DNA of 64,000 nucleotides. It comes from a virus (Duplodnaviria; Caudoviricetes). The stretch spans positions 10,760 to 74,759 of the IMG/VR virus record IMGVR_UViG_3300030433_001936. One strand, given 5' to 3'. Positions 10,931 to 56,742 of the stretch are shown here, piece after piece (within the stretch, counting starts at the first letter, position 1; every line of letters begins with the position of its first letter). The notes below the pieces were generated by a model. That model saw only the letters and a list, made by a program, of their open reading frames with translations, made no database searches and was not told the origin of the DNA. Both the position numbers and the translations under genes were made by a program.

Positions 10931-11216
10931 GGCGGGTCAATCCGAACAAGCACACCGCCACAAAATTCAGTATGATACTGAATACGAATCGTCCCCCGAG
11001 CGCATCAAATATCGGGAAGAACTCAACCGTGAGCGAAGGCGAAGGGGCATTTACGGGCGTGGTGGACCTGATGTTAGCCACACCCGTGCAAACACATTGG
11101 TGTTGGAAAGTCCACACAAAAATCGTGCGCGACACTTCAAAGAGCGTGGGACTTTGAAATCAAACCCCGCACCCATTGACCAAGCGTGGTCAGTTTTGAA
11201 GCATCAATTGGATTGA
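10902..11216 (+). CDS. Small basic protein (HNH/His-Me-finger-like) with a C-terminal AWxxLK tag
   Basis: RERRRRG..PDVSH...LVLESPHKNRAR resembles small basic HNH-derived marine phage proteins; ends PIDQAWSVLKHQLD. Confidence 0.6.
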   Translation: MNMSAIRGIMAGQSEQAHRHKIQYDTEYESSPERIKYREELNRERRRRGIYGRGGPDVSHTRANTLVLESPHKNRARHFKERGTLKSNPAPIDQAWSVLKHQLD

Positions 11217-12006
11217 CAGTGCCAACGCCATTGTCATTCGCCCATTGCAACAATGTTTCAGTTGCCAAATTTGCACCCGACCCTTTGACAAACGGACACC
11301 CACCGATACCGCCAATGCTTGTGTCAAACTGACGAATGCCAACATCGTATGCCATTTGCACATTGCCGATAAGCGAATCCCCATGTTCGTTTTCATGCAA
11401 ATGCACTGCCCACTTTGTTGACGGCATACGGGCAATGATGTCGCCAATGCGTTGAATGGATTGAGCATCGGCAATACCCGCAGTATCTGACAACACAACG
11501 GTGTAGCCCAACAATGCCGATTGTTGCAACACATTGGCTATGAACAAATCGTCATACTGACCGTCAGTGGGACAACCGAATGCGTGTGAGATATACACAC
11601 GGATGTTTTCTTTGGGAATACCCCACAACATGCTACGGTATGTTGCATGCAACACTGCCAACGATGAATTAAAATTTTCAGCGTTGAATGTTTCCGATGG
11701 CGATAGGCACACATTGATGTTGGTTGCGCCCACTGCTTTTGCCCGTTCCAATCCTTTTTCGTTTGGCACTAGCACACTCAAATGACACGGCAATTTTTTG
11801 ATTTCATTAAATACTGTTGCAGATGCGCTCATGTTTGGCACAAGTTTGGGATGCACAAAACTGCCGACTTCTATATTGCGGATTCCACAATCATACAATT
11901 GTTCTATCATGCTGACTTTGTCAGCCACTGACACATCACACTTTGCAGATTGCAGACCATCACGAGGTCCGACTTCGTAAATCTCAATCGTACTGCTTCC
12001 CTTCAT
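11137..12006 (-). CDS. hmgL: Hydroxymethylglutaryl-CoA lyase (HMGL-like, DRE-TIM family)
   Basis: EVGPRDGLQ, IEVGSFVHPKLVP, HLHE metal motif, GGCPF..GSGANLATE; start likely MKGSS at 12006. Confidence 0.85.
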   Translation of the reverse strand: MKGSSTIEIYEVGPRDGLQSAKCDVSVADKVSMIEQLYDCGIRNIEVGSFVHPKLVPNMSASATVFNEIKKLPCHLSVLVPNEKGLERAKAVGATNINVCLSPSETFNAENFNSSLAVLHATYRSMLWGIPKENIRVYISHAFGCPTDGQYDDLFIANVLQQSALLGYTVVLSDTAGIADAQSIQRIGDIIARMPSTKWAVHLHENEHGDSLIGNVQMAYDVGIRQFDTSIGGIGGCPFVKGSGANLATETLLQWANDNGVGTVNPIDASKLTTLGQWVRGLISKSHAL

Positions 12007-12148
12007 GACGCAATCCACCCATGCACATGGCTTGCAGTTCTTCGTCATTTTGGAAAACAACAACATCTTTTCCGATGTCATCAAACAACGAAATTATATG
12101 CTCAATCAACGCTAATCCAACAATTGCGGTAATGACCCAACCCCACAT
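11984..12148 (-). CDS. 54 aa single-TM micro-protein (not in the ORF track)
   Basis: My translation: MWGWVITAIVGLALIEHIISLFDDIGKDVVVFQNDEELQAMCMGGLRHEGKQYD. Confidence 0.45.
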   Translation of the reverse strand: MWGWVITAIVGLALIEHIISLFDDIGKDVVVFQNDEELQAMCMGGLRHEGKQYD

Positions 12149-18758: not shown

Positions 18759-19508
18759 TCACATTCTTCCTGCCTGTCTTTCTGATTCTGCCCACGCTAA
18801 CCATCGGTCTAATTCCCGTTGGAAATCTTCGGGGTCAATCGCCAATGTTGGGTCATGACCCACTGCATTGTTGATGTATTTGATTGCGTCATTCATGTAT
18901 TGATGCCCGTCAGGGTGGTCGTCCATTATCGCATGATGAGCGAACTGCAACGGCAAATAGTCGGGCATGTGCTGTTCCATCAATTGACGAAACATGCCAG
19001 GATGTTTCTGTTGAAGCGCATCAATCCACCCTTGACCCATATCAGTGAAACCATCAAGGAATGGCGAGAACTTCATGTCGGGGTTGCGAGCCAACACATG
19101 CGGAAGCATTTCAGCCAAGCCTTCAGCGTATCCACGACCACGGACATCTTCATCCACATGTAGTGCTAAATCCCGTTCTGTGCTTATGTCAGGTACAGTT
19201 TCTTCCGACAACGGGTGATACACAAGTTCACCATTCGGCATAAGCGTTGACCCAATTTCCAAACTCCCACGGTATGTAGGTCCGTATGGAGTGGGCTTTT
19301 CGCCAATATGCCCAGTCATTTGCCCACGCTCTTTGTCATGCTCAAAATAAACGGGAACATCCTTTTTCTCTTCGGGGTCATAGAACTGACCTTCATATTC
19401 ATCCATGTCGTCATCAGTGTTGACCCGTCGCACGGTTTCGTGCCGTAGTGGGGCTTTGACGACATGCGTTTTGAGAAGCAACCATGCTTGCTCAAACGCC
19501 CCCTGCAT
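18759..19508 (-). CDS. GNAT-like acetyltransferase with an N-terminal AWxxLK tag
   Basis: MQGAFEQAWLLLK; LHVDEDVRGRGYAEGL matches GNAT acetyl-CoA-binding motif A. Confidence 0.55.
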   Translation of the reverse strand: MQGAFEQAWLLLKTHVVKAPLRHETVRRVNTDDDMDEYEGQFYDPEEKKDVPVYFEHDKERGQMTGHIGEKPTPYGPTYRGSLEIGSTLMPNGELVYHPLSEETVPDISTERDLALHVDEDVRGRGYAEGLAEMLPHVLARNPDMKFSPFLDGFTDMGQGWIDALQQKHPGMFRQLMEQHMPDYLPLQFAHHAIMDDHPDGHQYMNDAIKYINNAVGHDPTLAIDPEDFQRELDRWLAWAESERQAGRM

Positions 19509-19587
19509 GGCACACGCTAAGTGCGACTGCCCGATAAACAATTCCTTCCAGAAAAATTTTTTTCGCGATAACGCGCGCTGCTAGGAA

Positions 19588-20016
19588 GGGCAAAACTGAC
19601 GGGTAAAACTGTCCCTCCGCCTATCTGCGGGTAAAACTGACGGGTAAAACTGCCACTGCCACCCTCGGTGGCACACTGACTGCACCGCACTGCGGTGGCA
19701 CTGTCTGAACGGCGCACTGCGCCACTGTGGTGGTGGGTAAAACCTCACACACACAGACAAGCACGGGCAGTGCTAGGCACTGCCCTACACATGCGTGTAA
19801 GTACCCAACCAACGGTTGGGTAAAACTACAGCGACGGTTCGCCCAAACCGAATCAGTCGCGCAGGCACAGTGGCTAGTGCCACTGTGAAGCCAGCCCCCT
19901 TCATCCCAACCGTATGGTTGGGCAATCTCATTGTCATCCCATCTGATACAGGGTAAAACCGTAGGGTAAAACCACCGAACCCTACCCCAAACATCAGGTA
20001 AAACACAGGGTAAAAC
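19588..20016 (+). repeat. GGTAAAAC iteron-like direct repeats (10 copies, often in pairs 12-13 bp apart) interleaved with hairpins
   Basis: Copies at 19588 (GGCAAAAC variant), 19601, 19629, 19642, 19735, 19818, 19951, 19964, 19996, 20008. Confidence 0.85.
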
Positions 20017-20061
20017 TGCCGACCAAAAGTGAAGGGAAAGTGATGGGAAATCGCAGTTTGG

Positions 20062-20094
20062 TTAAATACCCCTCAAACAACACCATTTATGGTG
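20062..20094 (+). promoter_or_regulatory. Conserved early promoter (TTAAATA-CCCCTCAA + CACC..GGTG palindrome)
   Basis: TTAAATACCCCTCAAACAACACCATTTATGGTG. Confidence 0.8.
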
Positions 20095-20100
20095 AAACAA

Positions 20101-21285
20101 ATGTTGAATACCAAATACGAAGAAACCAACGAAGCATTGATTGAAGCGATTACCAACGATTTCCTCGTTGGCTTGTCTGATGACCGAATGGATGATGGCG
20201 TTGCCATCATTTCCACATTGGTGCATTGCACCAATGTCCTCTCTGGCAACACCGAAGGTGATAAGAAACTGGCAGCCAAAGACATCCGTGATGTCTTTGA
20301 AACAAAGAAGCGAAGTTATGCCGACCTTGTCGGCATTGCTACCGAAGCCCTCAACCAACCTGAAGGTTGGGTTGACCGAATCAATGCCATCCTTGATGGC
20401 ATGGAAGCCGAAGAAGTCAACGACCCTGTCGTTGAAGAAGACAACACCGAAGTGGTGGCATCTGCCACCACCCCTGTTGATGTCCCTGACATCAACGGAT
20501 TGGTTGCCTCCGCTGTTGCTGAAGCAACAGCACCAATCATGGCAATGCTTCAATCAGCGATTGAAACCATGAAGACCAACCACAACGCTGTTGTGGTTGT
20601 TGATGACCCAACTCCTCAACCGAAGGTTGAAACCCAACCGAAGGTTGAAGCACCATCCAATCCTTCGGGATTGGATGAAAAGAAGTCCTACGGCAACCCG
20701 AAGGGTTGGTCGGACAAAACCCACTACTCGGTTTCTGTTGTTGCCGACTTCGTCGGAACAAACAAAACCGATGCCAAATACGGAGTATTTGTTTGCCGTG
20801 GTCTGACTCCTGAAGAAGCGACCCTTCAGGGTCGGAAGGTCGTCCTCCGAAGAATCATCCAAACCATTGACAAGGTCAATGGAAACAAAGCAATCACCAA
20901 AGCCACCCAATCCGAGGATTGGATGGCGGTTGCTTCGGATTCCTTCGGAATCACTGATGCTGTGTTGGATTCGTTCTTGACGAATCCCAACAAATTCCAA
21001 CAACAGTCCCGAAGGACTGGTGAATCCCTTCGTTCCCGTCTCGGTATCACCGATACCGAAACCTTCCACAACCTCGTTGTGGAATTGATTGATGCCAACC
21101 CTCAACCGAAGGTTGCAGCAAAGCCGAAGGCTTCCACCTCAACTCTGTTGACCATGAAGACCGAACCAACGGTGCAACCGAAGGTTGCACCTGCGGTTGC
21201 CACTCTTGACCCTGACGAAGTCAAAGCGGTCATGGCGACCTTCGGTATGACCTTTGCTGAGGCAAAGGCTTACCTCACCGAGTAA
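20101..21285 (+). CDS. First early gene; hypothetical protein with QPKV repeats; DNA tiled by hairpins
   Basis: Open frame behind the conserved promoter and GGTGA; over 30 perfect inverted repeats within the CDS. Confidence 0.75.
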   Translation: MLNTKYEETNEALIEAITNDFLVGLSDDRMDDGVAIISTLVHCTNVLSGNTEGDKKLAAKDIRDVFETKKRSYADLVGIATEALNQPEGWVDRINAILDGMEAEEVNDPVVEEDNTEVVASATTPVDVPDINGLVASAVAEATAPIMAMLQSAIETMKTNHNAVVVVDDPTPQPKVETQPKVEAPSNPSGLDEKKSYGNPKGWSDKTHYSVSVVADFVGTNKTDAKYGVFVCRGLTPEEATLQGRKVVLRRIIQTIDKVNGNKAITKATQSEDWMAVASDSFGITDAVLDSFLTNPNKFQQQSRRTGESLRSRLGITDTETFHNLVVELIDANPQPKVAAKPKASTSTLLTMKTEPTVQPKVAPAVATLDPDEVKAVMATFGMTFAEAKAYLTE

Positions 21286-21422
21286 TCGGTGAACGGGGTT
21301 GGCAACCCCGACCCACCTTCGGTGGGACTCGGTTGACCACCGCCCTTCGGGGCGGTGGTTGACCACTCGTTCTCCTTGTTGGTTTTGGGGGGCAGGGCTA
21401 TCGCCCTGCCTCCCTTTTTTTT
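21276..21422 (+). terminator. Hairpin cluster ending in stem + poly-T terminator
   Basis: ACCACCGCCC-TTCG-GGGCGGTGGT (21336-21359); GGCAGGGC-TATC-GCCCTGCC (21391-21410) followed by T8. Confidence 0.7.
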
Positions 21423-21960
21423 ATACGCGCGCGATTCTCCACCCCTCTTGAGGGGCTTCTCCCTCATGCGTGTGTAGGAATCGGTTTGATTCTGCAGTGG
21501 TTCTGCACCGATTCTGTATCCAATCCTAGTGGATTGACTAGTGTTTTGCCGTCTTCTGTGTCATGCTAGTGCATGACACTGCATCCATTTTGATTCAATG
21601 GCAGACCAGACCCAGTGGATTCAGTGGTTTTACCCAGTGAAAACGACGATGATTAGCAGGTAAAACAGCAGGTTCACTGCAGGTAAAACTGCAGTGGGTT
21701 GTCGTTTCGTACGACAGTGTCGGCTTAGTGCCTCCACTGCCACTCCAACCATACGGTTGGAAACCCTACAGATTCTGGATGACACTGCATCGCCTCCCCG
21801 AAACCTGATGTCCCCCATATCAATCGCTGTGGTTGCCCTGCCGACCACCCATCAGGGTTATCCAAACCCCTACTAGTATGCCGATGAGATGGCATGGATG
21901 ATTCAGCATGATGATAGTGCGTCCGTAGTGGACGCAGTTGTTGTGCAGTTTTGCTGTAGT

Positions 21961-22069
21961 GTATTGATATTATTCAGTATTGTATTAAACAATAATAGAG
22001 TATATTTATCCTAAAGGATACAGGATACGACCAAAGGTAATACAGTCCAATACGATACAGAATAATATC
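21961..22069. repeat. AT-rich nested palindrome, copy B
   Basis: GTATTGATATTATTCAGTATTGT-ATTAA-ACAATAATAG; inverted arm ATACAGAATAATATC at 22055-22069. Confidence 0.8.
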
Positions 22070-22083
22070 GGGACAACCGCCGA

Positions 22084-22118
22084 TTAAATACCCCTCAACC
22101 ATCACCATCTTTGATGGT
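22084..22118 (+). promoter_or_regulatory. Conserved early promoter
   Basis: TTAAATACCCCTCAA..ACCATC-TTT-GATGGT. Confidence 0.8.
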
Positions 22119-22122
22119 ATCA

Positions 22123-22380
22123 ATGGATGAAATCAATGAAATGGAAAGGAAGATGGGTGGCTTTGTCATCAGAACGAATCAAAGAAACGAAAAGGTGTTT
22201 TGGGTGGTTGGCAATCGCAAAAGGTTGCTGTATCGTCATCAAATGACCACTGGCAAGTTCTTCAACAAAGACGACAAAGAAATGTCGGCAAAAGCGGTTC
22301 GTGAAGCCAAAGCCTTCATTGCTGAAATGTCAAAGCCGAAGTCGTTGTTCGCTATCAAGTCCGAAGGTGATTCCCAATGA
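22123..22380 (+). CDS. Hypothetical early protein
   Basis: ORF behind the promoter; ATGA overlap with the next gene. Confidence 0.7.
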   Translation: MDEINEMERKMGGFVIRTNQRNEKVFWVVGNRKRLLYRHQMTTGKFFNKDDKEMSAKAVREAKAFIAEMSKPKSLFAIKSEGDSQ

Positions 22381-22994
22381 AGACCCAACTAGTTCATTGG
22401 GTTGAAGGTGGTTCAATCACCACTGGTGCTGATGTTCCCGTTGTTTGCCAATCCCATGCTGGTTTCATTGAATGTCCTCACTGTGGCAACGATAAGGCAT
22501 CGGTATTATCTGACATGGAGAATGGTCATCCCAACACTATGTGGAGAACCGATTGTGGTGATTGCGACCACAATCAGCATGTCTATGTCATTGAACTGAA
22601 CAAGTATGCTTTTGCTTACCTCAAGTCCATTCGTTTCAATTGCATTGAAGCGATAATGAATTGGGGTCATCAGTACTCAATGATTGGAGAACAAGTCGCC
22701 AAAGACCGTGCCACACTCAAAGAGATACTCATGGATGACCAACGACTTGATGGTTTTGACATGGAGTACTTGTTCGGTGATGATTGGAAGGAAGAGTTCG
22801 GTATCACTCAATCAATTGAGATGACCTATGATGGTGTTTTCTATCATGGTTATCGTGGTGATGTTCCCACTGAAGTCATTGCCGAAGGCAAAGACGCAGT
22901 TCGGATATGGTTGACTGAACATGGTGAACCGATGCCGTATGACTATGATGCTTTTGACAATATCAGATTCAATGGAAAGAAGGATGTGGAATGA
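22377..22994 (+). CDS. Zn-ribbon-containing hypothetical protein
   Basis: CPHC...CGDC. Confidence 0.7.
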   Translation: MKTQLVHWVEGGSITTGADVPVVCQSHAGFIECPHCGNDKASVLSDMENGHPNTMWRTDCGDCDHNQHVYVIELNKYAFAYLKSIRFNCIEAIMNWGHQYSMIGEQVAKDRATLKEILMDDQRLDGFDMEYLFGDDWKEEFGITQSIEMTYDGVFYHGYRGDVPTEVIAEGKDAVRIWLTEHGEPMPYDYDAFDNIRFNGKKDVE

Positions 22995-23787: not shown

Positions 23788-26166
23788 GTGATTGAGATGA
23801 CGAATTTGTTTGACATAATGAACAGTAAGAAGACACAACCAAAGAAGGAAGACCCGACAACGGTGTTGTCGGCAACGCAGTTGCATCAACTGTGTCAAGC
23901 CATGAGTGGTCGGGGCGCACCGACTCAACATGATGACATGGGATGGTGCAAAGACACTTGGACTGAAGGTAATCGGCTTGCCGATTTGCCATCGTTGAAT
24001 CGTGAAGATGCCTATCAAGCATCAGTCATCCTTTACAAGTTTGCCAACACTCAACTGCCATTGATTGCCGATGGCTTTGGGTTCAAGTGCAACAATGAAA
24101 TCATGTGGGCGACTCGTCAGCATTTGAAACTGAACACCCTTGTCTTCAAAGACAATTGGGGTGAAAGGATTGCACTGCTCGGTTGGTATAATACCGATGC
24201 CAAAGACGCACTCAAAGCGGAACTCAAGTTCCCCGCCATTGCTTGGACTACATCGGACAAGATTCCCGACTTCCCTGACCCCAATGTTCACGGTGCTTGG
24301 ACTATCCAAAACAAACCCGATGTTGTTTCAAAGGTCGTTGAGATTCTTCAACGGTTTGACATTGACTTCGCTGACCAAGTGGATGCCATGCCGATTCAAA
24401 GTGAGCAACCACCGACTAAGGCAACAGCGACCCAACCGAAGGTTGACCCACGGTACAAAGCCATCGTCAACATTGATTCACTTGAGTTGACCTGGCCCTT
24501 CCTCAACAACAATGCCGACATTCGTTCAGCCATCAAACAAGTTGATGGTTGGAAGTGGGATGGTGAAAAGAAAGTGTGGCGTATTCCTTTGGCTCAAGCC
24601 ACCCGTGTGGCTGATTTGGTTCGTCCCCACTCCGCTCAATTGGCTGATGCCATCATCGCTGTTCCCGAAGTGGCAACGGCATTGGAAGCCACGCTAAAGC
24701 GTGTTCAATTGTCCCAAGCAGTGGAAGCACCTGATGTCATGGTTGATGACATCAAGCAAAGACTTGACGGCAAATTCCCCGATGGTCTTGAGTTGTTCCC
24801 ATTCCAATATGTCGGTGTCGGATTCATTGAGGCTGCTAATGGCAGGGCAATGATTGGTGATGAGATGGGTGTTGGAAAGACCATTCAAGCCATCGGCTAT
24901 GCCGTTCTTCATCCCGAACTCTGGCCTTGTTTGGTCATCAGCCCTGCGAATGTCAAGTACAATTGGGGCAAAGAAATCGCCAAGTGGATTCCCGATGCTT
25001 CATGCACTGTTGTGAAGAACGGCAAGTCCATCATTGAAGATGCAGATTTCACCGTCATCAATTATGACTTGCTTGCCAAGCGAAAGGATGAGTTGTTGGC
25101 AAACGGATACAACCTTGTCATCATGGATGAATCCCACTACATCAAAGAAGAAAAAGCACAGCGCACTCAAGCCGCGATTGCCATTGCCCAACAATCAACG
25201 GGGTTGATTTGTTTGACGGGGACTCCCATCACCAACCGACCTGCCGAGTTCTTTACACAGTTGAATCTGTTGCGACCTGGTCGGTTCGCCAATGTTTGGA
25301 ATTACCGAAAGCGATACTGCGCTGCTCGGAAGACCAAGTGGGGAATGAAATACGATGGTGCATCCAACCTCGCTGAACTCAATGCCGAGTGTCGGGACTT
25401 CATGGTTCGTCGGTTGTTGTCGGAAGTCATTCCTGAAATGCCCGACCTCATCACCGAGTATCAATCGGTGGAACTTGACGATGCCGATTGGAAGAACTAC
25501 ATGGAACTTGTTCGTCAATGGCAACAATCGTATGAGTACTACCTTGACAATCCACCGATGCCCGCTGGCTTTGTCTTGAATATGTTGACGGAACTCCGTC
25601 ATCATTGTGGATTGTTGAAGTGCAAATACACCGCTGATTACATCGTGGACTATGTTCACTCGCAATCCAAACCATTGGTTGTGTTCACTCATCACCGTGA
25701 TGTCATGGATGACATCATTGCCAATCTAAGTGATAAGACAATCCGCTATGGCATCATTCGTGGTGGAACATCACCTCAAGCACGACAGCAACTCGTTGAT
25801 GAATTCCAATCCGATGGATTGGATGTATTGTTTTGTGCCACTGTAGCAGCGAAGGAAGGTATCACATTGACCAACGCTGACACTGTGGTGTTTGTTGAAA
25901 GGGAATGGGTGCCTGGTTGGGAGGCTCAAGCCGCGGCTCGGATTCGTCGTATCTCCCAACAATCATCCCACTGCCGTCAAGTGTTCTTGTCGGTTGCAAA
26001 GTCCATTGACCAGCACTTTGATGCTGTGGTTTCGGCTAAAGCCGAAGTGTTGACATCAGCCCTTGATGGGGATGAAGAAGCCCGTGCCACCAATCAAATC
26101 GTGAACGATTTGTTGAAGCGACTGATTGCTGACAATGGATGGAGAACAAAGAAGGTGAACGAATGA
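23788..26166 (+). CDS. SNF2-family (SMARCAL1/HARP-like) helicase
   Basis: LFPFQ, DEMGVGKT (Walker A), DESH (Walker B), GTPITN, helicase C-terminal motifs; HARP-like WKWDGEKKVWRIP N-domain. Confidence 0.9.
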   Translation: MIEMTNLFDIMNSKKTQPKKEDPTTVLSATQLHQLCQAMSGRGAPTQHDDMGWCKDTWTEGNRLADLPSLNREDAYQASVILYKFANTQLPLIADGFGFKCNNEIMWATRQHLKLNTLVFKDNWGERIALLGWYNTDAKDALKAELKFPAIAWTTSDKIPDFPDPNVHGAWTIQNKPDVVSKVVEILQRFDIDFADQVDAMPIQSEQPPTKATATQPKVDPRYKAIVNIDSLELTWPFLNNNADIRSAIKQVDGWKWDGEKKVWRIPLAQATRVADLVRPHSAQLADAIIAVPEVATALEATLKRVQLSQAVEAPDVMVDDIKQRLDGKFPDGLELFPFQYVGVGFIEAANGRAMIGDEMGVGKTIQAIGYAVLHPELWPCLVISPANVKYNWGKEIAKWIPDASCTVVKNGKSIIEDADFTVINYDLLAKRKDELLANGYNLVIMDESHYIKEEKAQRTQAAIAIAQQSTGLICLTGTPITNRPAEFFTQLNLLRPGRFANVWNYRKRYCAARKTKWGMKYDGASNLAELNAECRDFMVRRLLSEVIPEMPDLITEYQSVELDDADWKNYMELVRQWQQSYEYYLDNPPMPAGFVLNMLTELRHHCGLLKCKYTADYIVDYVHSQSKPLVVFTHHRDVMDDIIANLSDKTIRYGIIRGGTSPQARQQLVDEFQSDGLDVLFCATVAAKEGITLTNADTVVFVEREWVPGWEAQAAARIRRISQQSSHCRQVFLSVAKSIDQHFDAVVSAKAEVLTSALDGDEEARATNQIVNDLLKRLIADNGWRTKKVNE

Positions 26167-27313: not shown

Positions 27314-27618
27314 GGCGAAGGATGAACACACTAAGCGGAAACGGATGCAGTCTTGACCATGCAATGTTGATTGATGTATTGACAATCACACTTGAGCAGG
27401 GTCGTGAACAGATTCGTATCATGATGGCTGAAGCCAATGGTCTTGATGGCAGGTTGTTGCATATCAAGTGGGAACGGATTGAACAAATGGTTCAACATAT
27501 ATCTGATGTGGCTTCGTTGCTTCATGTGCTTCAGCACATGACCACTGACAAAAGACAAGAAGGATTCCGATGGGAAAACCTACCACTAACCGAAGGAGAT
27601 GAAAACAATGATGAGTAA
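27310..27618 (+). CDS. Hypothetical helical protein
   Basis: Coupled ORF. Confidence 0.6.
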   Translation: MRRRMNTLSGNGCSLDHAMLIDVLTITLEQGREQIRIMMAEANGLDGRLLHIKWERIEQMVQHISDVASLLHVLQHMTTDKRQEGFRWENLPLTEGDENNDE

Positions 27619-28192
27619 AGGAATATGCACGGGAGAAAACAAGTACGCTGAAAGCCGAGTATATGTGGCATGCCTCGGATGCTACAACGAAGGAAGGCTG
27701 ACAGGGAAGACGATGACATCAAACGAACTATCGGAAGCGTTGTTGAAAGCCAACGACTATGATGGTGATGAGTGGCATTTGCATCTTCATGGATGCAATC
27801 AGCCTGACCATGATGAGTGGGCTATCCATGATTATGATGGGGACATCGCTAGGGTGATGTCATCGGAACACCCCGACCTTCCAGACCTGATATGGATGAT
27901 GGACTTCGTTGATACTCAAACCAATGCCGTTCCTGCCATTCAGTTGGCATGGGGTATCCACAACATTCCAACGCCTGATGACATTGAACATGTCTATGAG
28001 AACATGGAAATCATAGAAGACATTGCTGATTGGGCATATGAAACCTGCAAAGACTGTGGGTATTTTGAAGAACCGAATGGTTGGCATCCAATCAACTACA
28101 TTGATTGGGAACGAGTGGGCAATGATATGCTCATGGATTATCACTACCAACAGTATGGCAACTACACATACGCCATCCACAGTATGGCGTGA
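27599..28192 (+). CDS. ardA: ArdA-like antirestriction (DNA-mimic) protein
   Basis: RVYVACLGCYNEGRLTG, EWAIHDYD, YIDWERVGNDM; strongly acidic. Confidence 0.8.
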   Translation: MKTMMSKGICTGENKYAESRVYVACLGCYNEGRLTGKTMTSNELSEALLKANDYDGDEWHLHLHGCNQPDHDEWAIHDYDGDIARVMSSEHPDLPDLIWMMDFVDTQTNAVPAIQLAWGIHNIPTPDDIEHVYENMEIIEDIADWAYETCKDCGYFEEPNGWHPINYIDWERVGNDMLMDYHYQQYGNYTYAIHSMA

Positions 28193-33866: not shown

Positions 33867-35567
33867 ATGGAAAAGAAAGGAAACCAAAGAATTGTGATTG
33901 TTGGTGATATTGAATCGTCAAACGATAAGCAAACAAAAGTACGATATGAAGCGATTGGCGGTCAACGGATTTGTTATATCCCTCGGCAAGCCATGATTTC
34001 AACGACCAAGACCTCTGACGGCAAAACCGCATTCTTGATTGAGTCATGCGACTTGCAACATGGAAGATATGACATCCATCAGCAGTTCGCTGATGTTAGA
34101 GCGCCACAAATCGTTGATGCAGAACACATTGAAGCCGTTGAAGTCCTTGAGCATGGGGAAGACGGCGCTGAAGAAGTCTTGAACAAGCCTATCCAACCCC
34201 CAACGGGTGGTTTGTTCAGCATCGCTAATGGTGGTGCAAACAACGACATCAGCGATGATGAAGAAGATTGGGATGACGAAGTCATGCCAACGGATGTAGG
34301 CTCATCCATTGAGATTAGCACGATGGATGTTGGTGGCAATGACCCCGTTTGGAACGGGGCGTTGACGAAGGGTGGTCGTGATGAGTTGGCTGCTCATGAC
34401 TGGCGATTTGAGCCAACCATGAAGCCGTTGTTCTCGGCTATCCAAGAAAACGAAAACATGGCACCTACCTTCAGCCCTGTGAACGATGCCAAAGGCAACC
34501 CAATGGCATTCGGTGTCTTCAATCCGACCTATGCATCTGAAGCCCGCCCCGAAGGGGCGTTGCTTTCAACGGTGTCTAAGGATTATTTCCCTGTGTCATA
34601 CCCAACGGTCTTTGACCCGTTGCTTGACATGTCTGCAAAGCATGGTTGGAAGGCTTCAGTTACTGCATACAACGAAGGTGGCAAAGCCCGTTTGGATTGT
34701 GATGTATCACAAGCCACGCAATCAAAGCAACTCGCTGCTCAACGCTTGAAGGACAAAGGACACGCATGGATTAGCACTGATGTCTTCAACGACACCGCCA
34801 AGTCCCTTGACGGTCTTTACCGATATGGGTTCAGCGTCAACAACTCGCTTGACGGCACTCGTGCCTTGTCGGTTCAAGCCGTAGCAATGCGTGTGTATTG
34901 TACCAACCTTGCGGTGATGGGCAATTCACAAACCATCGCTGCTCTGCGACACCGTAAAGGTGTCATGCAAGACCGCAACTGGAACTCGTTTGCAACGAAG
35001 GTCAACGACATCATCATGGACGCACAGAACTCATTGATTGAGATGGAATTCATGCAACACATCCCTGTGGATGTTCAATTGTTTGAACGCTTGATGACCC
35101 TTTGTGAAACAAAGGGATTGATGTCCTGGCCTGCAAAGAAGCCTGACATCGTCAACGGAAAGAATGTCGGTGAAAAATTGACTGGAGGACACATGTGGCG
35201 ACTAGCAATGGATGGTTGGACGAAGCCCCAAAACGAATGGGTCAATGTCAGCGATGAGCAAAGTGGCACACTATACCACGCTTACAATGTTCTGAACGGT
35301 GCAATCACCCACCGTCCCGAGTGGTCTGATGGAAAGACGACCTTGAAGGGTCGTGCGGTTGGCTTTGACACCCTCAACCGAAGGTTGGGAACTGTTCACA
35401 ATGTCATGACCGACATCCTTCACACTGCTGCTAACGATTACCGCGTTGAAACTGGCGCAAAGAAAATCGGGTTTGACGAATTGAAGGACTTCAATTCATA
35501 CATCAAGTCGGACGGACTTGGTGTGCTAAACGACATTCCAATGGCATCCGAGGTCTTGAACATCTGA
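33867..35567 (+). CDS. DUF932-family protein with an N-terminal extension
   Basis: VSKDYFPVSYPTVF, NSLDGTRAL..AMRVYCTNL, TLYHAYNVLN. Confidence 0.7.
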   Translation: MEKKGNQRIVIVGDIESSNDKQTKVRYEAIGGQRICYIPRQAMISTTKTSDGKTAFLIESCDLQHGRYDIHQQFADVRAPQIVDAEHIEAVEVLEHGEDGAEEVLNKPIQPPTGGLFSIANGGANNDISDDEEDWDDEVMPTDVGSSIEISTMDVGGNDPVWNGALTKGGRDELAAHDWRFEPTMKPLFSAIQENENMAPTFSPVNDAKGNPMAFGVFNPTYASEARPEGALLSTVSKDYFPVSYPTVFDPLLDMSAKHGWKASVTAYNEGGKARLDCDVSQATQSKQLAAQRLKDKGHAWISTDVFNDTAKSLDGLYRYGFSVNNSLDGTRALSVQAVAMRVYCTNLAVMGNSQTIAALRHRKGVMQDRNWNSFATKVNDIIMDAQNSLIEMEFMQHIPVDVQLFERLMTLCETKGLMSWPAKKPDIVNGKNVGEKLTGGHMWRLAMDGWTKPQNEWVNVSDEQSGTLYHAYNVLNGAITHRPEWSDGKTTLKGRAVGFDTLNRRLGTVHNVMTDILHTAANDYRVETGAKKIGFDELKDFNSYIKSDGLGVLNDIPMASEVLNI

Positions 35568-42884: not shown

Positions 42885-43844
42885 TTGGAACATTGGCGTG
42901 AACGATACCGACCAAAGGTTGTGGAACATCTTGTGGGATGTCCCGACTTTGCATCGGACTGTGAAGAGTGGCGGGATAGAAACGAATACCCATCGGCAGT
43001 TCTCTTTGTCGGACCTCCTGGCACGGGGAAGACAACGGCTTCCCTTATCATGGCACGACAGATGTTGGGCGAACATTTCAATTCAATGAATTACATTCAG
43101 TACAATGCTTCGGATGACCGTGGCATCAATCTCATCCGCAATGAAGTCAAGCGGGCTGCTCAACAAGGTGGTGTCGGAACGACACGAAAGGCGTTGTTCT
43201 TTGACGAAGCGGATGGTCTGACCAAACAAGCCCAAGAAGCAATGCGAAACACGATGGAAAAATATGCCAAGTACGCGCTGTTCATTCTTACCGCCAACGA
43301 TGAGTCGGCAATCATTCCTGCATTGCTATCACGGTGTATGGTGTATCGGTTCGGTCCTGCACGGGACGCAGATGCTGTCAAGTTGTATCGTCGTATCGCT
43401 GAAGCCGAGTGCCTTCCCGATGAATGGGATGATGAATTTGAATATCTGAATCAAGTGTGCGGTGGCGACTTGCGAAGTGGGATTGACATCCTTCAATCGC
43501 TACCCCGTACTGCCGATGCTTTGACCGAAAGGTTGAGCGTTGAACAAGCAAATTATTCTGACCCCGCCATGTCCGTAGCGGCTGGCGATTGGACGAACCT
43601 CGCAACGGAGTTGCGAAAGATTGCACAGACAGGTGTGCAAAGGTTGTACGCAATGAAGCAATTGCGGAACAACATTTACTCGCTCGGTCTATCAGCCGAG
43701 CAATACTATTCCTTCATTGTGGTGTGGGGTGAGTTCGTTGAACGAGTTCATACCTGGCCTGCTGGCGATGATGCGTACTACGATTACTTCATTGCCACAT
43801 TGATGGATAAAGAAAAAAGAAAAGGAAGTGAAACAAGTGTTTGA
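42885..43844 (+). CDS. rfcS: Replication factor C small subunit (clamp loader)
   Basis: WRERYRP, GPPGTGKT, NASDDRGI, DEADGLT, ALLSRC, GGDLR. Confidence 0.92.
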   Translation: MEHWRERYRPKVVEHLVGCPDFASDCEEWRDRNEYPSAVLFVGPPGTGKTTASLIMARQMLGEHFNSMNYIQYNASDDRGINLIRNEVKRAAQQGGVGTTRKALFFDEADGLTKQAQEAMRNTMEKYAKYALFILTANDESAIIPALLSRCMVYRFGPARDADAVKLYRRIAEAECLPDEWDDEFEYLNQVCGGDLRSGIDILQSLPRTADALTERLSVEQANYSDPAMSVAAGDWTNLATELRKIAQTGVQRLYAMKQLRNNIYSLGLSAEQYYSFIVVWGEFVERVHTWPAGDDAYYDYFIATLMDKEKRKGSETSV

Positions 43845-45144
43845 TGTACCAGGAAAAAGAGACGAAGATGAGAATTTGCCAAACTCCGTGCTTGAAAGAC
43901 TTCAAGCGTGGGCGGAAGCGCAGGGCTTGAGCATTGACGATGCCGTTGAGAAATTCAACGAGTATCTGTCCGACAAGTTTGCGGTTGACGATTGGCGTGA
44001 AGAAGACGAAGACTTCTTGCTTGAAGCAAGTGAAGGCATGGTCGTTCAGCGACGAAGCGGTGGCGGTGGTCTGAAGACCACCAATTTCGTGGGGATGTTC
44101 GTTGGCGTTGATGCCCGTTCAAGGGACAAGCGAGAAAGGACACGCAACGAAGTGGTGAAGGCGTACTGTGAGAACCCACAGAAGGCAATCAACGCAGGTC
44201 TGTGTGCCGAGGTCGTGCAACAAGACGGTGTGTGGGCTTTGAAGAAAGCCGATGGCATCCACCCAACTGAAGAACCCGTTGAGAAGAAGGCGTGGTTCAC
44301 AGTTGACACCAACGAAGGACCTATCGCATTGTTGCAAACAGGAAATTGGTCAAGCAAGGGCAACCCGATTTACCCCGAGTTGCACTCCCGCTTCTATTAT
44401 TTCCTCGGCAATACCGAAGGCGACTTTGGCAATGACATCAAGTTGTGGCGATTGGATTCACCACACCCCGATGCCTATGTGGATTTGTACAAGCCGTGCC
44501 GTGTGAAGGTCGTTCCGAATGACCCCAACCGTGAAGTCAATCCTGACTTCGCTGACATCCTTCGGTTGCCGAAGGGTTGGCACAAAGAAGTGGCACACAC
44601 CGTTGACTTCGTGGAAGAAGAGTTGCAACCGCAACTCGCACCCGAAAAATTCTGCGTGAATCCTGCCATCCACCAATACCATGTGTCGCTGACCGACACC
44701 CTTGAGCATTTCCACGCCAACCAAAAGGTGGTTGCAGGTCTGAACCCAATCGGACCTCTTGTGATTCTCAAAGGCAAAGTCACCAGCCTCTTCAAGGAAG
44801 GATGGGACAACGACTACGATGAAACGGGGAAGGTGTACAACCTTCGCTTCACATCATGGGACTTGCAGAAGGAATACCCAAGCGGTATGCGTTCCGAGAT
44901 GCAAGCAATCATCGGTGGCAACGCTGCTGATAACTTCCATGCTTTTGATTTCAAGGATGATGACGGACAATGGAAGCCATATGCCGAGCGCTCAACCGTG
45001 CTTGTCTTTGGTCGTCTGAAGGTTCGCCAAACCGAGAACGATGGGGAAGTCCCCCAGATTACCGCCTTCGGTGTGTTCGCAGTGCCACGCTTCGTGGTGC
45101 CAGCGGCTGAAGGTGGCAATCCAAACGCTGACCAATTTAATTGA
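43828..45144 (+). CDS. RPA-like OB-fold ssDNA-binding protein
   Basis: Position in replisome cluster; OB-fold beta pattern (ILKGKVTSL..VLVFGRL..ITAFGV). Confidence 0.55.
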   Translation: MKQVFDVPGKRDEDENLPNSVLERLQAWAEAQGLSIDDAVEKFNEYLSDKFAVDDWREEDEDFLLEASEGMVVQRRSGGGGLKTTNFVGMFVGVDARSRDKRERTRNEVVKAYCENPQKAINAGLCAEVVQQDGVWALKKADGIHPTEEPVEKKAWFTVDTNEGPIALLQTGNWSSKGNPIYPELHSRFYYFLGNTEGDFGNDIKLWRLDSPHPDAYVDLYKPCRVKVVPNDPNREVNPDFADILRLPKGWHKEVAHTVDFVEEELQPQLAPEKFCVNPAIHQYHVSLTDTLEHFHANQKVVAGLNPIGPLVILKGKVTSLFKEGWDNDYDETGKVYNLRFTSWDLQKEYPSGMRSEMQAIIGGNAADNFHAFDFKDDDGQWKPYAERSTVLVFGRLKVRQTENDGEVPQITAFGVFAVPRFVVPAAEGGNPNADQFN

Positions 45145-49738: not shown

Positions 49739-50070
49739 GTATCGTTGACGACATCATTGCGTTGCAACAGGAAAACGATACGCTTCGCGCTACCTTACAT
49801 GATGTTCGGGACGCATTGCAGATGCTGATGACCATCGTGGATGGATTGATTGAAGAGAATGTGGGTGAGCCTGAACCCGTTGAAGAAGCAACAACGGATG
49901 AAGAACTCATGGAAGAAGAAGAAGGTGAGGAAAGCGTGTGGGAAGTCATAGATGCACCCGAGCCTGAAGAAGCACGGTATGAGTTGACACACTTCGGCAA
50001 CGAAGACAAACAAGGCTCGGCTACATACCGTGTGGATGTGAGTGATGTGCTTGGCGGGAGGGGATTCTAA
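49735..50070 (+). CDS. Coiled-coil, acidic hypothetical protein
   Basis: Heptad N-terminus, poly-E linker. Confidence 0.7.
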   Translation: MSIVDDIIALQQENDTLRATLHDVRDALQMLMTIVDGLIEENVGEPEPVEEATTDEELMEEEEGEESVWEVIDAPEPEEARYELTHFGNEDKQGSATYRVDVSDVLGGRGF

Positions 50071-53875: not shown

Positions 53876-53877
53876 GC

Positions 53878-56082: not shown

Positions 56083-56742
56083 ATGGCGGGTGTCTTATCG
56101 TTGGATATTGAAACATCCAACTACTCCCATGAGATAGGAGGATGGGATAAAACCCACATGTTTGAACCAACGGTTGTTGCCACATACGACGGGGATGATG
56201 CCACCATTTTTTGCAATCAAGACATCACTGTAAAGGGTGCGACAGTTCTCCCTTTGCATCCCCGTGATGTCGGTGAGCATCTGATGAAGCACATTGAAGG
56301 CGGTGGTACAGTCGTGGGACACAACATCGTGGCGTTTGATTTGCCCGTCCTTCGTGATGCGTTGGATTGTCATGCTGCTGGTCAGATTCTGACGAAGCAC
56401 AAAGACCAACTCATTGACACCGCACACACGCTACGCAAAGCATCAAGCAATGTCGGGAAAGCGTATCACATTAAACTCAATGATGTGTGCAAGCACACAC
56501 TCGCTAAAGGGAAGACCATGAGTAGCCATGAAGCACCGCTGTTGTGGAAGCACGGGGACTATGATGATGTAGCATCCTATTGTTTGAACGACGCAACGCT
56601 TAATTGGGAGTTGGTGGAGCATGGCATGAACACGGGCATCGTCAAAAGCCGTTCACGGTGGACTGGCGAAATAGTGAAATTAGAGGTTGATTGGAAATGG
56701 GCGAAGGGAGAGATACCAGCACACAGAAAGCACAACAGTTGA
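56083..56742 (+). CDS. DEDD 3'-5' exonuclease (RNase H-like)
   Basis: LDIETS, GHNIVAFD, YCLND. Confidence 0.8.
   Translation: MAGVLSLDIETSNYSHEIGGWDKTHMFEPTVVATYDGDDATIFCNQDITVKGATVLPLHPRDVGEHLMKHIEGGGTVVGHNIVAFDLPVLRDALDCHAAGQILTKHKDQLIDTAHTLRKASSNVGKAYHIKLNDVCKHTLAKGKTMSSHEAPLLWKHGDYDDVASYCLNDATLNWELVEHGMNTGIVKSRSRWTGEIVKLEVDWKWAKGEIPAHRKHNS

What the first reader, a model, noticed from the sequence alone, without database searches (positions are those of the whole stretch)
20081..21422. A protein-coding gene almost completely tiled with perfect short hairpins
Seen: over 35 perfect inverted repeats (mostly 5-10 bp stems, 2-5 nt loops) laid nearly end-to-end through ORF 20101-21285 and its 3' flank. 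Examples: ATGATGGC-GTT-GCCATCAT (20192), ACATTGGTGC-ATT-GCACCAATGT (20215), ATGCCGAC-CTT-GTCGGCAT (20318), TGCCATC-CTT-GATGGCA (20385), TGGTGGCA-TC-TGCCACCA (20453), GTTGATGTC-CCT-GACATCAAC (20476), CATCCAATCC-TTCG-GGATTGGATG (20654), CAAATAC-GGA-GTATTTG (20775), CCATTGAC-AAG-GTCAATGG (20864), GGATTCGT-TCTTG-ACGAATCC (20967), TCGGTATC-ACC-GATACCGA (21041), TTCCACAAC-CTC-GTTGTGGAA (21064), GGTGCAACC-GAA-GGTTGCACC (21171), CCTTTGC-TGAG-GCAAAGG (21251). Many have C-GAA-G or C-TTCG-G loops. The stems have different sequences and encode different peptides, so this is not tandem duplication, and neighbouring genes are far less dense by eye. Established: C(GAA)G DNA and C(UUCG)G RNA loops are extra-stable and nuclease-resistant. 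Inference: a dual-coded element in the probable first-entering/first-transcribed DNA, e.g. an ssDNA/cruciform shield or injection-control signal, a hyper-stable immediate-early mRNA, or a structured decoy for host nucleic-acid sensors.
Basis: partly seen in the sequence, partly recalled or inferred. Interest (0 to 1): 0.9.

Follow-up and report, generated by a model that had tools for sequence, protein, structure and literature searches.

The report
Hairpin-carpeted gene in archaeal-virus control zone
A real protein-coding gene of an uncultured marine archaeal virus, with the non-coding DNA on both sides of it, is packed with dozens of perfect little DNA hairpins that evolution keeps base-paired, most likely because this 2.5 kb stretch works as single-stranded DNA, probably at the virus's replication origin.

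Summary
Observation confirmed and extended. ORF 20089-21285 (398 aa) holds 23 perfect hairpins with stems of 7 bp or more, against 1.5 in synonymous shuffles. It is the extreme outlier of the 74.8 kb genome.

The ORF is a real gene: dN/dS is 0.27-0.48, indels are in frame, and its middle domain folds confidently. No known family or fold matches.

The hairpin load recurs in all 11 homologous genes, down to about 25-30% identity, weakly in the most distant one. Stems covary: 30 pairs changed on both sides against 14 in shuffles.

The carpet is not confined to the gene. Both non-coding flanks are 12-15 times enriched, covary too, and carry a family-wide GGTAAAAC iteron array.

- Pairing is strictly Watson-Crick, with no G·U signature.
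- Three-base loops dominate.
- About 80% of 3-4 nt loops close with 5'C·G3', in coding and non-coding DNA alike.
- Loops are sometimes replaced by their exact reverse complement.

These point to folded single-stranded DNA, not mRNA.

Best reading: a replication-origin-type zone with an embedded early gene. A stable early mRNA and a template-switch by-product remain rivals. The "first-entering DNA" idea has no support.

The scan has noted hairpin-tiled early genes on other phage DNA. The closest published parallel is coding palindromes in hairworm mitochondria.

The parts
19551..19564 (.). A5T7 palindromic tract at the left edge of the zone, next to the start of the leftward gene block
   Evidence: position conserved in relatives
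19602..20016 (+). Array of 9 direct GGTAAAAC iterons, several in pairs 12-13 bp apart
   Evidence: 12 of the window's 14 copies (both orientations) lie in the zone. The same octamer array is upstream of the gene in relatives wherever enough upstream flank was recovered, including distant L013, L014 and L015
19657..19922 (.). Six perfect hairpins (stems 6-9 bp) in non-coding DNA, interleaved with the iterons
   Evidence: whole upstream flank: 7 against 0.56 +/- 0.75 in dinucleotide shuffles; compensatory changes at the same sites in L004, L006, L009, L013
19905..19922 (.). Conserved palindrome CCCAACC-GTAT-GGTTGGG. Its sequence, not only its pairing, is kept in all relatives
   Evidence: a second copy with the inverted loop lies at 21744-21761
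20062..20074 (+). TATA-type viral promoter TTAAATACCCCTC, the first of 11 copies on the + strand
   Evidence: 11 matches against 0.68 expected; 27 nt before ATG 20089
20081..20094 (.). Start-site palindrome CACCAT-TT-ATGGTG
   Evidence: the same element follows other copies of the promoter
20089..21285 (+). Protein-coding gene, 398 aa (P0001); the start may instead be ATG 20101. Acidic N-terminal helical domain, Pro/Lys-rich linkers with QPKV repeats, conserved middle domain (residues about 193-341), short C-terminal two-helix module
   Evidence: dN/dS 0.27-0.48; middle domain pLDDT 85.6, pTM 0.80; no family or fold found
20153..21268 (.). Intragenic carpet of perfect hairpins: 28 with stems of 6 bp or more. 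Centre-to-centre spacing peaks at 30-36 nt
21294..21422 (+). Four G+C-rich hairpins just after the stop codon; the last one is followed by a T8 run, the likely end of the transcript
   Evidence: That the T run is the terminator is inferred
21442..22020 (.). About ten more perfect hairpins in non-coding DNA, with iterons at 21627 (inverted), 21659 and 21682, and the second CCAACC palindrome at 21744-21761
   Evidence: whole downstream flank: 14 against 0.91 +/- 0.97
21900..22083 (.). A+T-rich segment (G+C 0.36-0.39) at the local minimum of cumulative GC skew; candidate unwinding element
   Evidence: inferred
22084..22096 (+). Next copy of the promoter; right edge of the zone

Best explanation
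Window 19.55-22.08 kb is a cis-acting DNA zone of a magrovirus-like marine archaeal tailed virus, and it is regularly single-stranded. The most likely identity is the replication origin.

The zone consists of GGTAAAAC iteron arrays and one conserved palindrome on each side, an A+T-rich segment, and between them a carpet of short, thermodynamically optimised hairpins that can form on either DNA strand. A genuine early protein gene of unknown function lies inside the zone, so its codons have been shaped to serve as hairpin arms as well.

Proposed mechanism (inferred). The region is opened by an iteron-binding initiator, and perhaps by transcription from the promoter at 20062. Both strands then snap into rows of mini-hairpins. 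This keeps the bubble from re-closing and offers structured single-stranded DNA to the helicase, primase or single-strand-binding machinery.

Stem perfection is maintained by ordinary compensatory substitution, and apparently also by template-switch conversion at the hairpins themselves.

Shown: the hairpins, their conservation and covariation, their Watson-Crick-only and strand-symmetric nature, their presence in non-coding flanks, the iterons, and the coding status of the gene.

Inferred: the origin function and the unwinding-trap mechanism.
For: 1. Excess. The gene has 23 hairpins with stems of 7 bp or more against 1.5 in synonymous shuffles. The flanks have 7 against 0.56 and 14 against 0.91. 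The peak is unique in the genome.

2. Conservation. Homologous genes from independent assemblies hold 25, 23, 23, 18, 18, 17, 14, 8, 7 and 3 hairpins, against 0.6-1.8 expected.

3. Covariation.
- 13-17 double changes between this window and the orthologues at 48-51% identity.
- 41 of 258 RNAalifold pairs are compensatory.
- 30 pairs changed on both sides against 14.0 +/- 2.6 in shuffles, and 4-16 with partners slid by 1-3 columns.
- When one hairpin is lost, a neighbouring one takes its place.

4. DNA level rather than RNA level.
- Non-coding flanks outside the promoter-to-T8 unit carry the same hairpins, with compensatory changes.
- In distant L013 the upstream flank is denser (14.7 per kb) than the gene (4.1 per kb).
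- Broken pairs are G·T as often as A·C. Only 1 of 18 single-mismatch hairpins has G·T. G·T is depleted next to stems, 12 against 25 expected.
- 3-nt loops make up 54-62% of gene hairpins.
- GNA loops are equally frequent on both strands, 13 against 14.

5. Optimised fold. 79-84% of 3-4 nt loops close with 5'C..G3', in gene and flanks alike. The share is 27-33% at other stem positions and 32% in hairpins elsewhere in the window.

6. Hairpins form in DNA. Loops are exactly inverted at homologous sites: AAC/GTT, GAA/TTC, TT/AA, GTAT/ATAC. This is the footprint described for template switching (PMC8794818).

7. Origin-like setting.
- Iterons are almost confined to the zone and conserved across the family.
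- The zone lies at the divergence of the leftward and rightward gene blocks, at the cumulative GC-skew minimum.
- An A+T-rich segment lies at 21.9-22.1 kb.
- The two non-coding stretches, 0.55 and 0.8 kb, are unusually long.
Against: - No origin activity has been measured. The read-depth test could not be run.
- No recognisable initiator gene (Orc1/Cdc6, Rep) lies next to the zone, and P0001 matches no family.
- GC skew follows gene orientation here, so its minimum is weak evidence.
- Iterons could equally be operators for the divergent promoters, or a packaging or partition site.
- Hairpins are also in significant excess inside three other + strand genes (SNF2 11 against 0.75; DUF932 5 against 0.5; 43828-45144 5 against 0.5). 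A strictly origin-local cause does not explain this.
- That the flanks are untranscribed is inferred from promoter and terminator motifs only.
- Other agents' notes report hairpin-tiled early genes in unrelated phages. That hints at an early-expression function rather than a replication function.
Confidence: 0.45

Rival explanations
1. RNA-level function. The hairpins armour the first early mRNA, and possibly flanking non-coding transcripts, against RNases, chemical decay or guide-RNA-based host immunity, or they tune its translation.
For: The gene has its own promoter and a hairpin-plus-T8 end. In this clade the density is highest inside the transcript (23 per kb against 13-17 per kb in the flanks). 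It is the first gene of the block that also carries ArdA. Three other + strand genes are enriched while late genes are not. Other agents' notes describe hairpin-tiled early genes in other phages (leads only).
Against: There is no G·U tolerance on the sense strand: 2.7% G·U in the sense fold, and G·T depleted next to stems. Triloops dominate and tetraloops are only 16%. Identical, covarying hairpins lie upstream of the promoter and downstream of the T8 run. In distant relatives the flanks, not the gene, carry most hairpins. Loop types are strand-symmetric.
Confidence: 0.2
2. Mutational by-product. The zone is a hot spot of template switching or hairpin-templated conversion, for instance because it is often single-stranded. 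That process creates and perfects palindromes whether or not they are useful. The hairpins would then be self-maintaining passengers, as proposed for the coding palindromes of hairworm mitochondria.
For: The perfection is binary: 23 perfect stems of 7 bp or more against 2 with one mismatch in the window gene. Mikhailov et al. make the same argument (PMC6649704). Loops are exactly inverted at homologous sites. Synonymous sites in stems change almost as fast as outside them. The load varies by lineage, and in this lineage it spreads to other genes. The mechanism is documented (PMC8794818).
Against: The load persists at the same locus across very deep divergence. Slots are re-occupied when a hairpin is lost. 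The loop-closing pair is optimised to 5'C..G3' in about 80% of cases, although a drive that favours stable folds could also produce this. Changes fall on both arms more often than on one arm only. The hairpins sit in the confidently folded protein domains, where they should be costly.
Confidence: 0.2
3. Another cis-acting DNA role for the same zone: a packaging (pac) region, a partition site, a large operator complex for the divergent early/late promoters, or a stretch made hard to target by guide-based defence because every spacer-sized (about 35 nt) piece contains a self-pairing hairpin.
For: Iteron arrays on both sides of a gene also occur at pac sites and partition sites. Hairpin centres are spaced 30-36 nt apart. 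The zone lies between divergent promoters.
Against: Double-strand-binding roles do not explain selection for pairing with free stem sequence. Shielding 2.5 kb does not protect the rest of the genome from DNA-targeting defence. No terminase gene was recognised near the zone.
Confidence: 0.1
4. Assembly or sequencing artefact, or chance.
For: None found.
Against: The same architecture appears in 12 independent contigs from JGI, ENA, Logan and TARA assemblies, short-read and long-read. z-scores exceed 10.
Confidence: 0.01

Closest known systems
[quoted passage not shown] 2019, PMC6649704)
   Same: Perfect inverted repeats lie inside conserved, functional protein-coding sequence. Perfection is binary. 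The codon phase is non-random. The repeats turn over between lineages. The function is unknown, and template switching or conversion is proposed as the maintainer.
   Different: Here the arms are 5-11 bp, not up to 284 bp. The hairpins are tiled at about 35 nt spacing and concentrated in one 2.5 kb zone that includes non-coding DNA with iterons. The genome is that of a dsDNA archaeal virus. The loop-closing pair is optimised.
Template-switch mutations that create and maintain hairpins (Ripley quasi-palindrome model; Monttinen and Loytynoja 2022, PMC8794818)
   Same: It explains perfect stems, one-step compensatory change and loop inversion. Loop inversions are seen here.
   Different: It is a mutational mechanism, not a function. 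It does not explain why one locus is affected across a whole virus family, nor the C·G closure.
Origins embedded in or beside early genes, with iterons: lambda ori inside gene O; iteron plasmids (from my own knowledge)
   Same: A cis-acting replicator overlaps a transcribed coding sequence. Direct repeats serve an initiator. Lambda ori needs early transcription through the region.
   Different: Those origins use iterons plus an A+T-rich region, not a carpet of dozens of unrelated hairpins. No initiator is identified here. Origin activity is untested.
Hairpin-based single-strand signals: phage N4 early promoters (5-7 bp stem, 3-nt loop), G4/M13 complementary-strand origins, plasmid ssi/sso sites, HSV-1 OriS* (from my own knowledge)
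   Same: Short DNA hairpins, often triloops, that function only once the DNA is single-stranded or extruded.
   Different: Those are one to three hairpins with conserved sequence. Here there are about 50 with free sequence. The virus uses TATA-type promoters and encodes a TFIIB homologue. No ORF of virion-RNA-polymerase size was found (largest 1542 aa).
Genome-scale ordered RNA structure in RNA viruses and mRNA-stabilising stem-loops (from my own knowledge)
   Same: Dense secondary structure laid over coding sequence.
   Different: Those tolerate G·U and mismatches and are confined to the RNA. Here pairing is Watson-Crick only, strand-symmetric, and extends into presumably untranscribed DNA.
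Rickettsia palindromic elements inserted in frame in genes (as cited in PMC6649704)
   Same: Palindromic DNA that is translated as part of a protein.
   Different: Those are copies of one mobile 100-150 bp element that decay with time. Here every hairpin has its own sequence and stays perfect.

Membership tests
Iteron-type replication origin | Cluster of direct repeats (iterons) for an initiator | tested here: met
   9 + 3 GGTAAAAC copies in the zone against 2 elsewhere in 64 kb. The same array is conserved in the relatives whose flanks were recovered.
Iteron-type replication origin | Adjacent A+T-rich unwinding element | tested here: inconclusive
   G+C is 0.36-0.39 at 21900-22200, and there is an A5T7 tract at 19551. 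Unwinding itself was not tested.
Iteron-type replication origin | Switch of strand composition at the site | tested here: inconclusive
   The cumulative GC-skew minimum lies at about 21.8 kb, but it coincides with the switch of gene orientation.
Iteron-type replication origin | Recognisable initiator gene next to it | tested here: inconclusive
   Neither P0001 nor the small neighbouring ORFs match any initiator family. A novel initiator is not excluded.
Iteron-type replication origin | Replication starts there (marker frequency, 2D gels, autonomous replication) | not testable with these tools
The host is not in culture.
Structured mRNA / RNA-level element | Base pairs kept by compensatory change | tested here: met
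Structured mRNA / RNA-level element | G·U wobble tolerated on the transcribed strand | tested here: not met
   G·T equals A·C among broken pairs. 1 of 18 single mismatches is G·T. G·T next to stems is 12 against 25 expected.
Structured mRNA / RNA-level element | Structure confined to the transcript | tested here: not met
   Both flanks beyond the promoter and the T8 run are 12-15 times enriched and covary. Transcript ends are inferred from motifs.
Coding palindromes maintained by conversion (Nematomorpha type) | Perfect inverted repeats within conserved coding sequence of a functional gene | tested here: met
Coding palindromes maintained by conversion (Nematomorpha type) | Binary perfection: no excess of imperfect repeats | tested here: met
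   2 single-mismatch hairpins against 23 perfect ones in the window gene; 18 in 7 genes
Coding palindromes maintained by conversion (Nematomorpha type) | Biased codon phase of the repeat centre | tested here: met
   For odd-length loops the centre falls on codon position 2, 1 and 3 in 77, 34 and 10 cases.
Coding palindromes maintained by conversion (Nematomorpha type) | Long arms (tens to hundreds of bp) scattered over many genes | tested here: not met
   Arms are 5-11 bp. They are concentrated in one zone, with lesser excess in three other genes.
Coding palindromes maintained by conversion (Nematomorpha type) | Footprints of template switching | tested here: inconclusive
   5 exact loop inversions among 75 same-stem loop differences, about 1.3 expected by my rough estimate. 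Three or four are at clearly homologous sites. No ancestral reconstruction was done.
N4-type hairpin promoters | DNA hairpin with 5-7 bp stem and 3-nt loop | tested here: met
   Shape only: stems 5-11 bp, 3-nt loops in 54-62%
N4-type hairpin promoters | Conserved promoter sequence in and around the hairpin | tested here: not met
   Stem and loop sequences all differ.
N4-type hairpin promoters | Giant virion RNA polymerase gene | tested here: inconclusive
   The largest ORFs of the 74.8 kb contig are 1542 and 1096 aa. The contig may be incomplete, and the 1542-aa ORF was not scanned.
T5-type first-step-transfer / injection-stop region | Lies at the genome end that enters first | tested here: inconclusive
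   The locus is internal in the 74.8 kb contig and in contigs of 105-106 kb. True genome ends are unknown.

The most novel reading that the evidence does not exclude
The hairpin carpet is a functional device of a kind not yet described. It is a kilobase-scale stretch, coding sequence included, built so that both DNA strands collapse into rows of optimised mini-hairpins the moment they are separated. It would serve as a self-locking unwound replication origin or as the entry platform for the viral replisome. Other agents' notes on hairpin-tiled early genes in unrelated phages may mark the same principle, which would then be widespread in viruses of bacteria and archaea.
Probability: 0.25. Interest if true: 0.85.

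Novelty: new variant of a known kind. Interest (0 to 1): 0.72.

Why it matters
One 1.2 kb sequence is under two selective regimes at once: a folded protein, and about 25 perfect nucleic-acid stems. This has held through divergence down to about 25-30% protein identity. It is one of the densest cases of dual coding I know of.

If the zone is the origin, it would be a candidate first replicator for magrovirus-like viruses, which are abundant in the surface ocean and cannot be cultured (PMC5434244). It would also introduce an origin design based on single-strand folding rather than A+T richness.

If it is a by-product, it marks where and how template switching shapes a viral genome. It would also show that proteins can tolerate massive palindromic overwriting.

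Either way it yields concrete, cheap tests: oligonucleotide melting, nuclease mapping on cloned DNA, read-depth profiles, and gel-shift binding assays with the encoded protein.

Tried and rejected
- **Nucleotide and protein searches of the phage collection.** No match for the zone or for P0001. PolB finds only about 22% identity to haloviruses.
- **Family, structure-sequence and atlas searches for P0001.** Pfam, PHROGs, the PDB sequence profile and the ESM Atlas gave nothing usable.
- **Full-length AlphaFold model.** Poor, pLDDT 48.
- **Middle-domain model.** It folds well, but Foldseek against the PDB has no hit at E of 0.001 or better, and VIA-align wide gives a best Z of 3.3. So there is no functional lead. 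This does not show that the fold is new.
- **IMG/VR search with the protein.** Only three spurious low-complexity hits, none hairpin-rich.
- **IMG/VR scan for paired iterons.** 119 or more chance matches and no relative.
- **Rfam.** Nothing near any gathering score in 19000-22600. No tRNAs in the window.
- **Smooth decline of hairpin density with distance from the zone** (as a single-strand exposure gradient would give). Rejected: the enrichment is gene-specific, with zero-hairpin genes in between.
- **One-arm-only clustered changes as a template-switch signature.** Rejected: both-arm changes are commoner.
- **Sense versus antisense folding energies.** The antisense strand folds better with RNA parameters, but mostly because base composition allows more G·U pairs there. 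Not used as evidence.
- **Thermophile context.** I considered it from sample names and dropped it: a TARA Oceans scaffold carries the family.
Full report

Yes.

Between 20081 and 21422 there are 44 perfect inverted repeats with stems of 5 bp or more and loops of 2-6 nt. ORF 20089-21285 holds 37, 28, 23 and 16 with stems of at least 5, 6, 7 and 8 bp.

Shuffling synonymous codons among identical residues keeps the protein and the codon usage. It gives 11.0, 4.1, 1.5 and 0.7 for the same four classes. Permuting codons gives 0.4 and shuffling bases 0.27 for stems of 7 bp or more.

The amino-acid sequence has therefore been shaped as well, because synonymous shuffles still beat codon permutations. 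Folded as DNA, the first 1000 nt give z = -11.

The genome held for this window is one contig of 74,759 bp. Its densest 1.2 kb window has 26 such hairpins; the densest outside the zone has 8. Gene by gene, this ORF has 23, the SNF2 helicase gene 11, and most genes 0-3.

**2. Is it a gene?**

Yes.

- Homologues exist in at least 15 protein clusters.
- Indels are in frame.
- dN/dS is 0.27-0.48.
- The conserved middle part (residues about 193-341) gives a confident model with a 19-row alignment: pLDDT 85.6, pTM 0.80.
- The N-terminal helical domain reaches pLDDT 73-84.
- The protein is acidic overall (pI 4.75), with a mildly basic middle domain.

No family, solved structure or fold could be assigned.

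The start may be ATG 20089 or ATG 20101. The more distant orthologues begin at the second.

**3. What kind of genome is it?**

The window encodes:
- a TFIIB homologue,
- a thermosome-type chaperonin,
- an RFC-like ATPase,
- a family B DNA polymerase (about 22% identical to halovirus polymerases),
- an SNF2 helicase,
- Cas4-like and ERCC4 nucleases,
- ArdA.

A TATA-like 13-mer, TTAAATACCCCTC, occurs 11 times on the + strand against 0.68 expected. Earlier first-reader notes flagged it, and I confirmed it here.

Relatives come from marine assemblies, including a 106 kb TARA scaffold. This fits the published description of magroviruses, archaeal tailed viruses of marine group II (PMC5434244). I did not test membership by phylogeny.

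The hairpin gene is the first gene of the + strand block. It lies directly after the point where the leftward and rightward gene blocks diverge.

**4. Conservation and covariation**

I fetched DNA for ten further distinct homologous genes (twelve contigs in all) from independent assemblies.

Hairpins with stems of 7 bp or more number 25, 23, 23, 18, 17, 14 and 18 in the closer relatives (91-39% identity). They number 8, 7 and 3 in the distant ones (about 25-33%). Synonymous shuffles give 0.6-1.8.

In a codon alignment about half of the window's 220 stem pairs are still Watson-Crick at the same columns in the 48-51% orthologues, with 13-17 double changes each. Many sites keep a hairpin while the stem sequence is entirely different.

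RNAalifold finds 41 of 258 pairs with compensatory change.

On the window's own 214 hairpin pairs, 30 show a change on both sides. Column shuffles give 14.0 +/- 2.6 (0 of 500 reach 30). Sliding the partners by 1-3 columns gives 4-16. That structure was derived from one of the aligned sequences, which favours it on 'cells paired', so I rely on the both-sides measure.

Where a hairpin is lost, a neighbouring one using the same middle arm can replace it. At 20938-20960 the window pairs leftward, while most relatives pair rightward, with a compensated variant in L004.

What is conserved is occupancy by a hairpin roughly every 30-36 nt, not any particular sequence.

**5. The carpet is larger than the gene**

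| Non-coding flank | Hairpins (stem 6 bp or more) | Dinucleotide shuffles |
|---|---|---|
| Upstream, 19542-20088 | 7 | 0.56 +/- 0.75 |
| Downstream, 21286-22083 | 14 | 0.91 +/- 0.97 |

Upstream hairpins sit at conserved places and covary. The arm GGGCAGTGC becomes GGGCAGGGC in L004 and L006. TGCCACC becomes TGCCGCC. CACCGC becomes CACGGC. One site has three unrelated stems in three lineages.

In the distant TARA relative the upstream flank is denser (14.7 per kb) than the gene (4.1 per kb).

The flanks also carry the octamer GGTAAAAC: nine direct copies upstream, two direct and one inverted downstream, and only two more in the other 61 kb. The same octamer, in the same arrangement, is present in the relatives whose flanks were recovered, including those whose protein is only about 25-33% identical.

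A palindrome, CCAACC-(G/A)TA(T/C)-GGTTGG, is conserved in sequence. It stands once in each flank, with its loop in opposite orientation.

G+C drops to 0.36-0.39 at 21.9-22.2 kb, where cumulative GC skew has its minimum.

An earlier first-reader note had already called 19551-20060 an iteron-plus-hairpin array. I checked and agree.

**6. DNA or RNA?**

Five results point to DNA.

- **Position.** The same hairpins fill DNA upstream of the promoter at 20062 and downstream of the T8 run at 21411-21418. That these flanks are silent is an inference from motifs.
- **No wobble.** Where pairs are broken in orthologues, G·T and A·C are equally common: 17 and 17, 18 and 14, 17 and 16. Only 18 hairpins in seven genes carry a single internal mismatch, and one of those is G·T. 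At the first unpaired position outside 172 distinct stems, G·T is depleted: 12 against 25 expected, with a codon-phase-aware null. A·C is raised, 43 against 33. A structure selected in the sense RNA should show the opposite.
- **Loop length.** Three-base loops make up 54-62% of gene hairpins and four-base loops 16%.
- **Strand symmetry.** GNA triloops occur 13 times on the + strand and 14 times on the - strand.
- **Loop inversion.** At homologous sites the loop has been replaced by its exact reverse complement: AAC/GTT between L011 and L009/L004, GAA/TTC between the window group and L006, TT/AA, and GTAT/ATAC. This is the footprint of template switching at a DNA hairpin (PMC8794818), and it implies that these hairpins form in DNA in vivo. 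The excess is modest: 5 of 75 against about 1.3 expected by my rough estimate.

**7. Selected, or merely self-maintaining?**

The loop-closing pair is 5'C..G3' in 76 of 90 three-base and 22 of 27 four-base loops in the genes. In the non-coding flanks it is 33 of 42 and 26 of 33. The share is 27-33% at other stem positions and 32% in hairpins elsewhere in the window. The reverse closure, 5'G..C3', is almost absent.

From my own knowledge, this closure is the most stabilising one for small DNA and RNA loops, and it reads the same on both strands. So the hairpins are tuned for stability, in coding and non-coding DNA alike.

This argues for selection on the fold. A conversion drive that acts more often on stable folds could mimic it, however.

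Other results fit the conversion model that Mikhailov et al. proposed for coding palindromes of hairworm mitochondria (PMC6649704):
- the binary perfection,
- the near-normal rate of change at synonymous sites within stems,
- the lineage-specific spread of hairpins into the SNF2, DUF932 and 43828-45144 genes.

I therefore keep 'by-product of template switching' as a serious rival. Both readings share one inference: this DNA is often single-stranded.

**8. Most likely mechanism**

The zone shows conserved iterons on both sides, a conserved palindrome pair, an A+T-rich segment, a position at the divergence point, two unusually long non-coding stretches, and a carpet of strand-symmetric, stability-tuned hairpins. 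This best fits a replication-origin-type element.

My proposal, which is inferred and not shown: opening of the zone lets both strands fold into rows of mini-hairpins. These hold the bubble open and present structured single-stranded DNA to the viral replication proteins. Transcription of the embedded early gene may help, as it does at lambda ori (from my own knowledge).

Confidence that the feature is real, conserved and DNA-level is high. Confidence that it is an origin is moderate. No initiator was found, GC skew is confounded by gene orientation, and the read-depth test could not be run.

**9. Comparison and novelty**

The nearest published case is the Nematomorpha coding palindromes. It shares the dual coding, the perfection and the phase bias. 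It differs in arm length, tiling, restriction to a zone, and the iteron context.

N4 hairpin promoters and single-strand origins share the hairpin shape but not the number or the sequence freedom.

I found no paper describing this in magroviruses or any archaeal virus.

Notes of other agents in this scan describe hairpin-tiled early genes in a mycobacteriophage family and in jumbo phages. These are unchecked leads, but they suggest the phenomenon is wider than this family.

I class the finding as a new variant of a known kind.

**10. Unexplained**

- The G·T deficit and A·C excess beside the stems.
- The 30-36 nt spacing.
- The gene-specific excess in three other + strand genes.
- CACTG motifs upstream and YAGTG motifs downstream of the gene, in opposite orientation.

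Noticed in passing
window 23788-26166, 33867-35567, 43828-45144: Three other + strand genes (SNF2 helicase, the DUF932 protein, a 438-aa ORF) also carry a significant excess of perfect hairpins. They hold 11, 5 and 5 with stems of 7 bp or more, against 0.5-0.75 in synonymous shuffles. Neighbouring genes and the leftward block have about none. Their loop closures look less optimised.
   Followed up: partly
window 20062, 22084, 23335, 26397, 28461, 29803, 33827, 38612, 42845, 49274, 54595: There are eleven + strand copies of TTAAATACCCCTC (0.68 expected). Several are followed about 20 nt later by a CACCAT-NN-ATGGTG palindrome. This is probably the viral early/middle promoter, perhaps read with the virus's own TFIIB homologue (58343-59257).
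   Followed up: partly
window 19905-19922 and 21744-21761: The same sequence-conserved palindrome, CCAACC-loop-GGTTGG, stands in both flanks of the gene about 1.84 kb apart, with the 4-nt loop in opposite orientation (GTAT and ATAC). In L004 the upstream copy has the flipped loop.
   Followed up: partly
window 19654-19881 and 21495-21957: CACTG is clustered on the + strand upstream of the gene (8 copies in 230 nt). CAGTG/TAGTG is clustered downstream (13 copies in 460 nt). This is an inverted arrangement of a second short motif around the gene. Several non-coding hairpins have TAG or TAGT loops.
   Followed up: no
window 20089-21285 and orthologues: At the first unpaired position outside perfect stems, G·T is half as frequent as expected (12 against 25) and A·C is raised (43 against 33). 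This is a strand asymmetry that none of my readings explains.
   Followed up: partly
window 20520-20620 (alignment columns about 525-600 of A2): The orthologues are mosaic. In this segment L011, L009 and L006 share one version with its own hairpins, while the window, L008 and (partly) L007/L004 share another, cutting across overall similarity. This suggests recombination between lineages inside the gene.
   Followed up: no
window 27599-28192; 53869-54570; 50070-50990; 56691-58193; 11137-12084: The virus encodes an ArdA antirestriction homologue in the early block, an ERCC4/XPF-type nuclease, a Cas4-like PD-(D/E)XK nuclease, a thermosome-type chaperonin, and an HMGL-like enzyme in the leftward block.
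   Followed up: no
L010:6001-6915 (ENA long-read contig, 105,190 bp): In this close relative the gene was called as only 304 aa, with small ORFs after it. A frameshift in a polished long-read assembly is the likely cause, not a real truncation.
   Followed up: no
It is just upstream of the 43.6-44.6 kb hairpin cluster, so this may be a second, minor site of the same kind.
   Followed up: no
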